Positions 45,001 through 48,000 of a stretch of 64,000 bases of DNA are shown one piece after another. Origin of the DNA: a virus (Duplodnaviria > Heunggongvirae > Uroviricota > Caudoviricetes). Position numbers: made by a program. The stretch lies in IMG/VR virus record IMGVR_UViG_2939521961_000018; one strand, written 5' to 3'. The number at the start of each line of letters is the position of its first letter. The first letter of the stretch is position 1.

Positions 45001-48000
45001 CATCGACCGGATCGCACCCGATGATACAGCACGTTTACGTGTAGGGGTCTAAACAGGTCATTGACGCTGTAAAGCTCCAGATTGTTAAAGAGCATTTTGC
45101 GGCGGGTTAAGTCGCGCCGTACGACTGATTTATGTAGCCCTGTGTAAGGGCGCGATGTTTCTGGCTTGGGTAAAATATAATAAGTGCAACTGATCATAGT
45201 CAATAGCGAGACTAATAATCTGGTTTAATTTTAATCTATGTGGTTGATTTTTAGATTAATTTATTTATGTAAAAAATATAAGCGAGGATAATGAAGATGG
45301 AGGATGCGTAAAGAAAAACCGGCGCGGGGGCCGGTTACTCTGTGTGAGATTTGGCGTGAGGGAAAAGCCCCCTGATAACACCAAGAAAAGCAGCGAACAG
45401 ATTCAGAGTTGAAGCAGCGGTCACCGCAATGAGCACTTCATCTGAAAAGATTTCTTTCCCCATGACGCGGCCTGTTGCAGACAACAACAAAACACTAGCC
45501 CACCAGTAAAGCCCATACTTGGCAACTTTATAGGCTTTTTCTGCAAATTTTTCTCTTAATTCCCTGTTAGATTTTGCATCTGCTGCGCGCTGGGCGTTTA
45601 AATTATCTCCATCTGATGAAGATTCTGTTGTTGGTGGCGTATCTTCAAGGCTTGATATATCTGTGCCTGGAAATGCTGCTCCGTTCGGGATTGTGATTTT
45701 TTCAAGTTCAGACATCAATGAATGTGGTTTGCCATATCAGTATGAAGAATTGGGCCACCATCAGGTTGACCTTTACTCCAGGCCGCGTTTGGTGCATGGG
45801 TCATGTTAGAAAGCTCGGTTCCGCTGTAGCTGCCGTATACCTCAACAATTCTGTCGATCAGCCTCCTGGTTTCTGTGTCACCCTTCTGTATTGTCGGTGT
45901 GATTCGTTTCCATTCCCCATCTGAATCAATGATGATGCTGATCATTTCCTGTATTTCATCGCCCCCATATTTCTTTAACATGTGGTACAGGTGCGGTATT
46001 ACAGGCCCGTAAGGCCAGCGCGCAAACAGATCGTCGAATAATGGCCTTCCGTTGAATAGTTTCAGATGCCACGACTGAGTATAGAACAACAATTTTTGTA
46101 GCTTCATCGGAGTTAAATCTTTGATTTCTCCCCGTTTAGCCTTATCAATAAAGGCGTTAGCTACGGCAGCAGCTGAATATGCCATGCTCTACTCCGCATT
46201 TTGCGAAATTAAATGTATCACCGGAGAGAATACAACAAAAAGCAAATTAGCAAAACTGATAGAGAAAGTCGGAAGCAAAAAAACCAAGAAGCGAACAGCA
46301 GTAACGAGTCAAATAGAACCCTGCGGGGTTGGTGGTTTTTGACAAAAACACTGCATGTAACTATAATTAGTTACAGTGTAGCGAAGATGAGATTATGTGG
46401 GCATGGGGAAAGCAGATAAGCTACTGGCAAAATTTTTAAACAGTAAAAAAACGTTTGAATGGGATGAGCTGGTCGTTTTGTTTTCCTCTCTGGGATATGT
46501 CAAAAAGGAAATGCAGGGGTCAAGAGTGCGGTTTTTCAATGCTGAAATCAACCACACCATATTAATGCATCGCCCTCATCCGGAAAGTTATGTCAAAGGT
46601 GGCACGTTGAAAGCGATTAAACAGAATCTGAAAGAGGCTGGGGTATTATGAAGCATCTAAAATATAAAGGATATTTAGGTACAGTTGAACCAGATTTTGA
46701 AAATAATATCCTCTATGGAAAGCTGGCATTTATTCGGGACTTGGTAACTTATGAGGCTTCTACGTTAGCTGAACTGGAAAAGGAGTTTAAAACATCAGTT
46801 GATCTGTATTTACAGTCTTGTGTGGAGGATGGAAAGGAACCTGATACCCCGTTTAAAGGCGTGTTTAACGTCCGGCTTGATCCCGAACTGCATCGTCGGG
46901 TAGCAGAAATGGCGATGGAAGAAGATTTATCACTGAACGCATTTGTTAATAAGGCGCTGGAAAAAGAAGTCAACCATCACACAGGGGCTTAATGTCACCT
47001 TCGTCTTTGACATCCTCACCGACATGAAGAACTGGTTTTACGGCACACCGGATAAAGGCCGCGAAAGCGGCCTTGTTTTTAGCGAATTCCACCACCGCCA
47101 GGACGAGAATCAGAAGAACGGCCACCACAACGAGAGCCGTCAGCAGCAGTATCATTGTCGTGCTGGCAATTACCCGCGAATGATTGAGTCGAAGCTACCA
47201 GTGACAACAAGACGAACAATGCAGCAAATGCTTTTTTCATGTAAGACACCTTATTTTAGGTTTTGGTAAGCTCAAATAATGCCCGAAAAGTGCATCCCTG
47301 CAAGGTTATTGATATCGCTCTGTGAGCTCAATCAAAAGTCTCATCATTCCACTGCGACTTTATGACTTTTCCGACAAACTGGCAGTTTTCGTTACACTCA
47401 ATCATGTCGAATCGTGGGTTGAGTGGCTCCAGGTACGCTTTACCGCTCTCACGAATGAATCGTTTGAAGGTGAATTCATCGCCGTTCATTCGGGCCACGC
47501 AAAAATCGCCATCCTCGATTTCCCGTTCAGGGTCAACGAGTATCAGCATCCCTTCAGGGAAACTGGGTTTACCACCCTGCGGCGCGGTCATTGAATGCCC
47601 CTTGACCTCCAGCCAGAACGACCTGTCACTGGCTTTTGTGGTGGTGGAGATCCACTTAATCGCATCCTTTGCGGTGTACGAAAAATCATCCATTGAGAAA
47701 GCTCCAGCCTGTACGCAGGAGAGTAACGGATATTCGTAATATTTCTCGAACAGGTTACGCCTGTTTCCCGGTGTGTGGGTACGAATACTGCGTAACAAAT
47801 CACTCAGATCTGGATTAATTTCTTCCGCAGGAACCTGTAATAAAGCCGCAAACTTAAGGGTATTTTCAGTATTTAACGCAATTTTTGCGTTCAATAACTG
47901 ACTAACAGCCCCCTGCGTTTTGAAGCCGAGGATATCTGCGGCTTTTTCCTGGCTTAGGGATAGCTGTTTCCGTTTTTCATCCCAGATTTTGCGCAGTCGT

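What the first reader, a model, noticed from the sequence alone, without database searches (positions are those of the whole stretch)
45335..46185. Candidate lysogen-expressed toxin-antitoxin or exclusion module: Panacea (DUF4065)-like protein coupled to a small two-helix membrane protein
ORF 45715-46185 carries what I read as the Panacea/DUF4065 N-terminal signature (AVANAF…TPMKLQKLLFYTQSW…FARWPYGPVIP.LY). Its TGA stop overlaps the ATG of a 126-aa ORF (45335-45715) ending in two hydrophobic helices. The pair is co-directional with cI in the position where lambda carries rexAB. Panacea domains are known antitoxin modules with varied toxin partners, but this partner and context do not match a named system I recognise.
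Basis: partly seen in the sequence, partly recalled or inferred. Interest (0 to 1): 0.75.

Follow-up and report, generated by a model that had tools for sequence, protein, structure and literature searches.

The report
Prophage PanA–PanT membrane toxin–antitoxin pair
Two overlapping genes near the repressor of a Shiga-toxin prophage form a toxin–antitoxin pair of an already described type (a Panacea-domain antitoxin with a small membrane toxin), so this is an untested member of a known family, not a new system.

Summary
On the minus strand, 46185..45715 encodes a 156-aa standalone Panacea protein (Pfam PF13274, E=6e-22, GPV motif present). Its TGA stop shares one base with the ATG of a 126-aa protein (45715..45335), which has a disordered acidic N-terminus, a conserved basic helix and a C-terminal two-helix hydrophobic hairpin.

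It does. The small protein belongs to PanT cluster "T3" of Kurata et al. 2022. Relatives recovered with its profile include the Tatumella morbirosei, Phaseolibacter flectens and Roseateles aquatilis strains (and Pseudomonas simiae, as a species) that the paper lists under T3, with the same panA–panT spacing. T3 contains an experimentally validated E. coli STEC O31 pair whose toxin depolarises and permeabilises the membrane and is neutralised by its PanA.

The panA-then-panT order was kept in all 47 related loci examined. Both genes are under purifying selection.

The window is an Stx2-converting prophage. The pair lies 1.1 kb downstream of cI, but a small gene, a hairpin and a convergent hicAB module lie between them, so co-transcription with cI is not shown. 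Toxicity, the trigger and the biological role of this copy are untested.

Verdict: new member of a known kind, modest interest.

The parts
45715..46185 (-). panA: 156-aa standalone Panacea-domain antitoxin (domain at residues 29-136, i.e. 45778-46101; GPV motif G60-P61-V62 at 46000-46008)
   Evidence: Pfam PF13274 E=6.3e-22, 79.1 bits against cut-off 25.7. phrog_1281 E=4e-41. AlphaFold2 pLDDT 95.8. RefSeq calls the identical gene 'Panacea domain-containing protein' WP_096858767.1. 177 homologues at E<=1e-10; the 120 listed are 102-176 aa and carry only PF13274.
45335..45715 (-). panT: 126-aa putative membrane toxin of cluster T3. It has a disordered acidic N-terminus (residues 1-34), a conserved basic helix (about 50-66), TM1 at about 67-84 (45464-45517) and TM2 at about 93-118 (45362-45439).
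   Evidence: No Pfam, NCBIfam or PADLOC family. phrog_33656 'unknown function' E=4e-84. Hydropathy. AlphaFold2 helices 35-84 and 92-117. Conserved motif SD..LIAITT..T.N..AAFLGVIRGLFP. Homologous to T3-listed genes of Tatumella, Phaseolibacter, Roseateles and P. simiae.
45713..45717 (-). TGATG junction: the panA stop and the panT start share one base, which suggests translational coupling
   Evidence: Read directly from the sequence. Overlaps or short gaps (-8 to +32 nt) occur at the same junction in relatives.
45309..45336 (-). intrinsic-terminator-like hairpin (AACCGGCCCCCGCGCCGGTT followed by TTTCTTT); its stem begins 1 nt after the last base of the panT stop codon
   Evidence: Consensus scan only.
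46186..46281 (-). 96-bp upstream block that travels with the pair. It holds a Shine-Dalgarno GGAG (46192-46195) and one weak promoter-like site, TTGCTA-15-TATTCT (46253..46227).
   Evidence: Homology with the O145/O111/O103 Stx2a phages, which carry different cargo upstream, ends at 46281. Promoter scoring. No LexA box and no repeat of oR sequence above chance.

Best explanation
This is a type II PanA-PanT toxin-antitoxin module of the membrane-toxin class (Kurata cluster T3), carried as cargo in the immunity region of an Stx2-converting prophage.

Shown here: the two genes are translationally linked (TGATG), move together as a unit, and are homologous to T3 pairs.

Inferred from experiments on homologues:
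- PanA, a standalone Panacea domain, binds the cytosolic N-terminal part of PanT, meaning the disordered stretch plus the conserved basic helix that precedes the first hydrophobic helix. This keeps PanT inactive.
- When PanA is lost or inactivated by a still unknown cue, free PanT inserts into the inner membrane as a helical hairpin and oligomerises. The cell is then depolarised and permeabilised, and growth stops.

Inferred from context only: the most likely use for the prophage is abortive-infection or superinfection exclusion, or retention of the prophage (addiction).
For: Family assignment:
- PanA is in Pfam PF13274 well above the cut-off and has the GPV motif that Kurata et al. report as critical for neutralisation.
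- PanA has no extra domain.
- A genome scan with the PanT alignment returned 33 loci in species-representative genomes. Three are strains that Kurata's table lists as T3: Tatumella morbirosei LMG 23360, Phaseolibacter flectens ATCC 12775 and Roseateles aquatilis CCUG 48205. Pseudomonas simiae is listed as a species. The panA-panT spacing matches the table in each case: 8, -4, 27 and -8.

Experimental basis in T3:
- The E. coli STEC O31 PanT shuts down transcription, translation and replication together, depolarises the cell and admits SYTOX Green. Its PanA neutralises it.
- ClpXP and Lon are not needed for neutralisation by PanA.
- A V. cholerae T3 toxin was also toxic.

Architecture and conservation:
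- PanT has a charged N-terminus followed by a hydrophobic C-terminus, as described for T3.
- For the related standalone-Panacea pair of Bartonella choladocola, mutagenesis supports binding to the disordered N-terminus and the short helix before the TM region.
- PanA is immediately upstream of PanT in 47 of 47 loci.
- Both genes are under purifying selection.
- The module is found in prophage immunity regions, tail-fibre cargo spots, an ICE and chromosomal islets. An ICE copy has kept panA but lost panT, which is the direction of decay expected for a toxin-antitoxin pair.
Against: - Nothing has been measured for this pair.
- I could not obtain the sequence of the validated E. coli toxin (WP_000019185.1). 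The link to it runs through shared cluster membership, not a direct alignment.
- In Kurata's tests eight PanTs were non-toxic in E. coli. These included both enterobacterial phage-borne pairs tested, which were cluster T1.
- The PanT model is of only moderate confidence (mean pLDDT 62), and the first hydrophobic helix is weakly hydrophobic.
- No strong promoter lies upstream of panA.
- PADLOC has no model that matches either protein.
Confidence: 0.72

Rival explanations
1. The pair is not a toxin-antitoxin system in this host. The membrane protein would be a non-toxic prophage factor, for example a superinfection-exclusion or membrane-remodelling protein. PanA would be its chaperone, regulator or sensor.
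For: Eight PanT candidates, including both enterobacterial phage-borne pairs tested (E. coli MOD1 and Salmonella phage Emek), were not toxic in E. coli. Ernits et al. favour a sensory role for Panacea in multidomain antitoxins. The small protein has no annotation anywhere.
Against: The non-toxic phage pairs belong to a different toxin cluster (T1, predicted mRNase). Of the three T3 members taken into testing, two were toxic and the third could not be cloned. Strict two-gene linkage and the orphan-panA decay pattern both fit a toxin-antitoxin pair.
Confidence: 0.13
2. An induction-coupled or SOS-coupled killing or lysis accessory. The pair would be switched on when the prophage is induced, and the membrane protein would act like a holin or a TisB-like depolariser during the lytic programme rather than in the lysogen.
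For: Many relatives have a perfect LexA box (CTGT-N8-ACAG) 31-148 nt upstream of panA, in 10 independent lineages, and some sit next to dinI. The pair is oriented like the early-left genes.
Against: The window copy and its Stx2a-phage siblings have no LexA box and no repeat of oR sequence upstream. The pair has its own terminator-like hairpin. SOS control is also compatible with an ordinary toxin-antitoxin pair.
Confidence: 0.08
3. A type VI, SocA-like system in which PanA neutralises by handing the toxin to ClpXP for degradation rather than by sequestering it.
For: SocA carries the same Pfam domain. NCBIfam's SocA model gives a partial hit at E=1e-24. Kurata et al. note that the two mechanisms need not be exclusive.
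Against: The score against the SocA equivalog model is 87 bits against a cut-off of 190. The partner is a membrane protein, not a SocB-like clamp binder. Neutralisation by the tested PanAs did not need ClpXP or Lon, and five pairs formed stable complexes.
Confidence: 0.05

Closest known systems
PanAT cluster T3, validated pair of E. coli STEC O31 (PanT WP_000019185.1 / PanA WP_000287252.1; Kurata et al. 2022, PMC8832971)
   Same: A standalone Panacea antitoxin sits upstream of a small toxin with a charged N-terminus and C-terminal transmembrane helices. Both belong to the same homologous toxin cluster, as shown through four other T3 species. Both are from E. coli.
   Different: It is a different allele and a different genomic setting. 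The validated pair has a 22-nt gap and was classed 'NotPhage'. This one overlaps by 1 nt and lies in an Stx2 prophage immunity region. I made no direct sequence comparison, and there is no experiment on this copy.
Bartonella choladocola (formerly B. apis) PanT(T12/D11):PanA (Kurata 2022; Ernits et al. 2023, PMC10440598)
   Same: A standalone Panacea domain neutralises a membrane-depolarising, pore-forming small toxin. The predicted and mutationally supported contact is with the disordered N-terminus and the short helix before the TM region, which matches the layout of the window PanT.
   Different: It is a separate toxin cluster that the authors call only possibly homologous to T3. I did not compare the sequences here.
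Lambda RexA/RexB
   Same: Both are two-gene cargo downstream of cI. Both pair a soluble protein with a small inner-membrane protein whose activation depolarises the cell. In E. coli SF-468 and Tatumella the PanAT pair occupies exactly that position.
   Different: No sequence relationship was detected; a Pfam scan at E<=0.1 found only Panacea. The logic is opposite: RexA activates RexB, whereas PanA inhibits PanT (RexAB mechanism from established knowledge). In this window the pair is not contiguous with cI.
SocA/SocB of Caulobacter (type VI toxin-antitoxin)
   Same: The antitoxin has the same Pfam domain.
   Different: It fails the SocA equivalog cut-off (87 against 190 bits). The toxin is unrelated, and the mechanism (ClpXP adaptor) is not required for other PanAs.
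SOS-induced small membrane toxins TisB, DinQ and HokE (type I systems)
   Same: They are small inner-membrane depolarising toxins. Many T3 relatives carry LexA boxes, as those genes do (TisB and DinQ biology from established knowledge).
   Different: Those toxins are neutralised by antisense RNA, not by a protein. The window copy has no LexA box.

Membership tests
Panacea-domain antitoxin (PanA, Pfam PF13274/DUF4065) | Match to the Panacea domain model above the curated threshold | tested here: met
   79.1 bits against a cut-off of 25.7, E=6.3e-22, model positions 1-112 of 113.
Panacea-domain antitoxin (PanA, Pfam PF13274/DUF4065) | Conserved GPV signature motif, reported as critical for neutralisation | tested here: met
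   G60-P61-V62 in ...RWPYGPVIP...; invariant in an alignment of 34 homologues.
Panacea-domain antitoxin (PanA, Pfam PF13274/DUF4065) | Binds and neutralises its cognate toxin | not testable with these tools
   Needs co-expression rescue and pull-down experiments.
PanT toxin cluster T3 (Kurata et al. 2022) | Sequence homology to proteins listed in T3 | tested here: met
   tblastn E=7e-27 (Tatumella morbirosei), 2e-28 (Phaseolibacter flectens), 2e-16 (Roseateles aquatilis) and 8e-22 (P. simiae). Those genomes or species are T3 rows in the paper's table, and the panA-panT spacing matches.
PanT toxin cluster T3 (Kurata et al. 2022) | [quoted passage not shown] | tested here: met
   Disordered acidic residues 1-34, a basic helix, then hydrophobic helices at 67-84 and 93-118.
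PanT toxin cluster T3 (Kurata et al. 2022) | Two-gene architecture with PanA: same strand, at most 100 nt apart, conserved in at least two species | tested here: met
   1-nt overlap here. PanA is directly upstream in 47 of 47 loci spanning Enterobacterales, Pseudomonas and Burkholderiales.
PanT toxin cluster T3 (Kurata et al. 2022) | Direct similarity to the experimentally validated member WP_000019185.1 | not tested
   The sequence could not be retrieved. It was not among four other E. coli variants examined, whose gaps are -1, 8 and 32 nt and one orphan panA, against 22 nt for the validated pair.
PanT toxin cluster T3 (Kurata et al. 2022) | Toxicity through membrane depolarisation or pore formation, reversed by PanA | not testable with these tools
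   Needs experiments.
SocA (type VI antitoxin, NCBIfam NF047745 equivalog) | Score above the equivalog cut-off, and a SocB-type partner | tested here: not met
   87.1 bits against a cut-off of 190. The partner is a two-helix membrane protein.
Lambda RexAB exclusion system | Homology to RexA or RexB | tested here: not met
   A Pfam scan of both proteins at E<=0.1 returned only SocA_Panacea for one and nothing for the other.
Lambda RexAB exclusion system | Lies directly downstream of cI in the same transcription unit | tested here: inconclusive
   In the window, a 56-aa gene, a hairpin and a convergent hicAB pair lie between. The pair is contiguous with cI in E. coli SF-468 and Tatumella. There are no transcript data.
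Catalogued anti-phage defence systems (PADLOC-DB 2.0) | Match to any defence-system protein model | tested here: not met
   No family at E<=1 for either protein.

The most novel reading that the evidence does not exclude
In Stx2-converting prophages the PanAT(T3) pair could be a Rex-like, prophage-encoded abortive-infection switch. The Panacea domain would sense an incoming-phage or DNA-damage cue and release a pore-forming toxin. In many other lineages the same module has been placed under direct LexA control. If so, it would affect superinfection immunity of STEC lysogens, and possibly the fate of cells during Stx phage induction.
Probability: 0.2. Interest if true: 0.55.

Novelty: new member of a known kind. 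Interest (0 to 1): 0.3.

Why it matters
RefSeq annotates the small gene only as 'hypothetical protein', and it has no Pfam, NCBIfam or PADLOC model. Linking it to an experimentally characterised pore-forming PanT cluster gives a concrete, testable function to a gene pair carried by Stx2a phages of the clinically important O145, O111 and O103 lineages.

The immunity region of these phages behaves as a cargo slot. PanAT sits next to hicAB here and next to a restriction-modification system in the O145 phages. Its contents could influence which phages can superinfect STEC lysogens and how stable the Stx prophage is.

The frequent LexA boxes in front of related modules are not mentioned in the Panacea papers I could read. 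They suggest a regulatory link between this toxin-antitoxin class and the SOS response.

Tried and rejected
1. cI control of panAT. TTTGCTAAT upstream of panA resembles two sites in oR, but the motif occurs at chance frequency in the window (23 found, 20.5 expected). The best ungapped oR match is reached by 12 of 100 shuffles. Rejected as evidence.

2. LexA control of the window copy. There is no CTGT-N8-ACAG site with at most one mismatch within 150 nt upstream of panA. The only nearby near-match (46361-46376) is the palindrome in the hicAB promoter and lacks the essential CTG.

3. Retrieving the validated E. coli STEC O31 PanT for a direct alignment.
- The supplements give accessions only.
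- tblastn against plasmids found nothing.
- tblastn against phages found only the Stx2 phages, apart from one non-significant partial match at E=0.9.
- Cluster look-ups of distant hits returned unnamed metagenomic proteins.
- Four other E. coli variants had different spacing.

4. Solved structures. There is no sequence or fold match for PanA or PanT.

5. The broad alignment A2 was too divergent for the genome scan, so I used A1 instead.

6. I did not fold-search the PanT model, because a two-helix hairpin of moderate confidence would give meaningless matches.

Full report
**1. The observation**

Both ORFs are on the minus strand at the coordinates given.
- ORF 46185..45715 encodes 156 aa. Its only Pfam match is PF13274 (SocA_Panacea) at E=6.3e-22, 79.1 bits against a gathering score of 25.7, covering model positions 1-112 of 113.
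- Its TGA stop (45717..45715) shares the base at 45715 with the ATG of a 126-aa ORF that ends at 45335. The junction reads TGATG.
- The 126-aa product has no Pfam, NCBIfam or PADLOC family. It matches only a PHROG of unknown function.
- Hydropathy gives a strong hydrophobic segment at residues 93-118 and a weaker one at 67-84. The first 66 residues are net acidic.
- AlphaFold2 with 28 homologues gives a disordered N-terminus, a long helix at 35-84 and a second helix at 92-117. pLDDT is about 80 in the helical hairpin and the mean is 62.

**2. Are these real genes and a real pair?**

- An exhaustive profile search with the small protein's family finds 720 cluster representatives (50% identity) at E<=1e-3 and 151 at E<=1e-10. 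They share a conserved C-terminal motif, SD..LIAITT..T.N..AAFLGVIRGLFP, and have variable N-termini.
- Among the related loci I fetched, 47 carry a homologue of the small protein, and every one has a PanA homologue directly upstream on the same strand. These come from metagenomes, NCBI genomes, 33 species-representative genomes and other E. coli genomes.
- Against the 96-97% identical Stx2a-phage copy, dN/dS is 0.19 for panA and 0.30 for panT. More distant comparisons have saturated synonymous sites, with dN/dS about 0.2 where it can be computed.
- PanA folds with very high confidence (pLDDT 95.8). It is a single compact domain with no DNA-binding or other extra domain.

**3. What it is**

Kurata et al. 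2022 (PMC8832971) named DUF4065 "Panacea". They showed that PanA antitoxins pair with dozens of unrelated toxins (PanT) and validated nine pairs.
- Three of those pairs have membrane toxins. One is an E. coli STEC O31 pair in toxin cluster T3.
- The E. coli toxin shuts down transcription, translation and replication together, depolarises cells and admits SYTOX Green. Its PanA neutralises it.

I could not obtain that protein's sequence, so I tested cluster membership indirectly. A scan of one genome per species with the small-protein alignment returned 33 loci. Among them:

| Genome (locus) | T3 row in the paper's table | panA-panT spacing, table | Spacing found here |
|---|---|---|---|
| Tatumella morbirosei LMG 23360 (L016) | same strain | 8 | 8 |
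| Phaseolibacter flectens ATCC 12775 (L044) | same strain | -4 | -4 |
| Roseateles aquatilis CCUG 48205 (L036) | same strain | 27 | 27 |
| Pseudomonas simiae (L021) | same species, different strain | -8 | -8 |

These comparisons rest. The window's small protein is therefore a T3 PanT.

PanA also meets the family's own criteria. It exceeds the Pfam threshold, and it has the GPV motif (G60-P61-V62) that the authors call critical for neutralisation. It is not a SocA orthologue, scoring 87 bits against an equivalog cut-off of 190.

**4. How it most likely works**

Shown in the sequence:
- The two genes are coupled at a TGATG junction.
- panA has a GGAG Shine-Dalgarno sequence 6 nt upstream of its ATG.
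- A G+C-rich hairpin followed by a T-run starts 1 nt after the panT stop codon.

Inferred from homologues:
- PanA binds PanT directly. Neutralisation by tested PanAs did not need ClpXP or Lon, and five pairs co-purified.
- For the standalone-Panacea pair of Bartonella choladocola, the predicted and mutationally supported interface is the toxin's disordered N-terminus plus the short helix before its TM region. The window PanT has the same layout. Its most conserved soluble element is the basic helix RELREKFAEKAYKVAKYG, just before the first hydrophobic helix.
- Basic residues flank both ends of the hairpin, which suggests an N-in/C-in topology. That would leave the N-terminal 66 residues in the cytoplasm, within reach of PanA. 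This is my inference.
- Free PanT would insert, oligomerise and depolarise or permeabilise the membrane.

The cue that frees PanT is unknown. Ernits et al. 2023 propose that Panacea may act as a sensor.

**5. Context and expression**

The window is an Stx2-converting prophage. Stx2A and Stx2B motifs lie at about 54.2-55.3 kb.
- The pair is 100% identical to one in E. coli JNEC-KY204.
- It is about 97% identical to pairs in 23 deposited Stx2/Stx2a phage records and in prophages of O145:H28, O111 and O103:H2 strains.
- It is rare overall. Of 5,426 complete E. coli genomes, 15 have a near-identical copy and 46 have any detectable relative.

The pair is co-directional with the LexA-like cI gene (48047..47328), but 1.14 kb lies between them. 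That stretch holds:
- a 56-aa signal-peptide gene;
- a hairpin at 47055-47074, which has a good T-run only on the plus strand;
- a convergent hicAB module with a perfect consensus promoter.

In the O145 phages the hicAB slot is occupied by a BsuBI/PstI-type restriction-modification system, and cI, the methylase, the endonuclease, panA and panT all point the same way. Homology between the two phage types resumes 96 bp upstream of panA.

That 96-bp block contains only one weak promoter-like site, TTGCTA-15-TATTCT. It has no LexA box and no repeat of oR sequence above chance. So "lysogen-expressed" and "co-transcribed with cI" remain open.

The rexAB analogy does have support elsewhere. In E. coli SF-468 and in Tatumella morbirosei the pair directly follows the repressor gene on the same strand. 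Other copies sit next to dinI and tail-fibre genes, in an ICE, or in ordinary chromosomal neighbourhoods. The pair is a mobile two-gene cassette.

**6. Rival explanations**

- The pair might not behave as a toxin-antitoxin system here. Eight PanTs were non-toxic in E. coli, including both enterobacterial phage-borne pairs tested. Those were cluster T1, though, and the T3 members that were tested were toxic.
- It might act during induction rather than lysogeny. The SOS boxes in relatives suggest this, but the window copy has none.
- A SocA-like protease-adaptor mechanism is unlikely.
- An ICE variant that kept panA but lost panT decayed in the direction expected for a toxin-antitoxin pair.

**7. 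Novelty and score**

The kind of system is known and has a validated E. coli representative. This allele, its place in Stx2a prophage immunity regions and its function there are untested. I rate it a new member of a known kind, with interest about 0.3. The most novel reading still open is a Rex-like abortive-infection switch in STEC lysogens, with SOS-wired relatives. I give that a probability of about 0.2.

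Noticed in passing
Related loci L003, L006, L010, L013, L014, L026/L027, L035, L040, L041, L043 (perfect boxes); L007, L037, L044, L046 (one mismatch); absent from window 46186-46335: Perfect LexA boxes (CTGT-N8-ACAG) lie 31-148 nt upstream of panA in 10 independent lineages of T3-type PanAT modules. Chance expectation is about 0.002 per locus for a perfect box, and the measured background for boxes with at most one mismatch is 0.077 per 150 nt. Some of these modules sit next to dinI. 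The Panacea papers I read do not mention LexA or SOS. The Stx-phage copies lack the box.
   Followed up: partly
window 46339-46992 (+): A hicAB toxin-antitoxin module (HicA 46397-46651, HicB 46648-46992) converges on panA. It has a perfect TTGACA-17-TATAAT promoter that overlaps a palindrome, GTAACTATAATTAGTTAC. In the O145 Stx2a prophages the same slot holds a BsuBI/PstI-type restriction-modification system, so the region between cI and panA is an exchangeable cargo slot.
   Followed up: partly
window 44643-44831 (-): Rfam hits to C4 antisense RNA (78.8 bits, gathering score 45) and isrK (57.2 bits, gathering score 50) lie just upstream of the Rha-family antirepressor gene. The 'Phage_ASH' Pfam hit on the long ORF 44867..43944 covers this RNA region, and RefSeq annotates only the Rha part. 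The Ash-like reading frame is therefore probably spurious.
   Followed up: partly
window 45140-45205 (-) and 44838-44867 (-): Two promoter-like sites share the same hexamers (TTGACT-18-TATATT). They lie downstream of panT, after an AT-rich stretch. The first is followed by a boxB-like hairpin, GCCCTTACACAGGGC. No N-like gene is annotated there. This could be the early-left promoter and leader.
   Followed up: no
window 47079-47249 (-): A 56-aa ORF directly downstream of cI has a signal-peptide-like N-terminus and a Gly/Ser/Arg-rich tail. RefSeq calls it 'transmembrane anchored protein'. It has no family match. It is the gene actually sitting in the position next to cI.
   Followed up: no
L048 (E. 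coli RM11911 ICE), 2625-3398: This ICE-borne panA is annotated with a long N-terminal extension, and its panT partner is missing. It is an orphan antitoxin. The sister ICE in strain F2_407_2_2 (L047) keeps an intact pair with a 32-nt gap.
   Followed up: partly
L003, L010, L046, L049, about 40-90 nt upstream of panA: A conserved element upstream of panA is shared by several enterobacterial copies. It reads ...TTATTAATATGTACTAAAG.TTACC.....GGTAAAAT... and contains the inverted repeat TTACC-N5-GGTAA. It is absent from the window copy, and its function is unknown.
   Followed up: no
window 54199-55500 (+): Stx2 A and B subunit genes are present (motifs EFTIDFSTQQSY and [10 protein letters not shown]), about 8 kb from the PanAT pair. 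The window is therefore an Stx2-converting prophage.
   Followed up: partly
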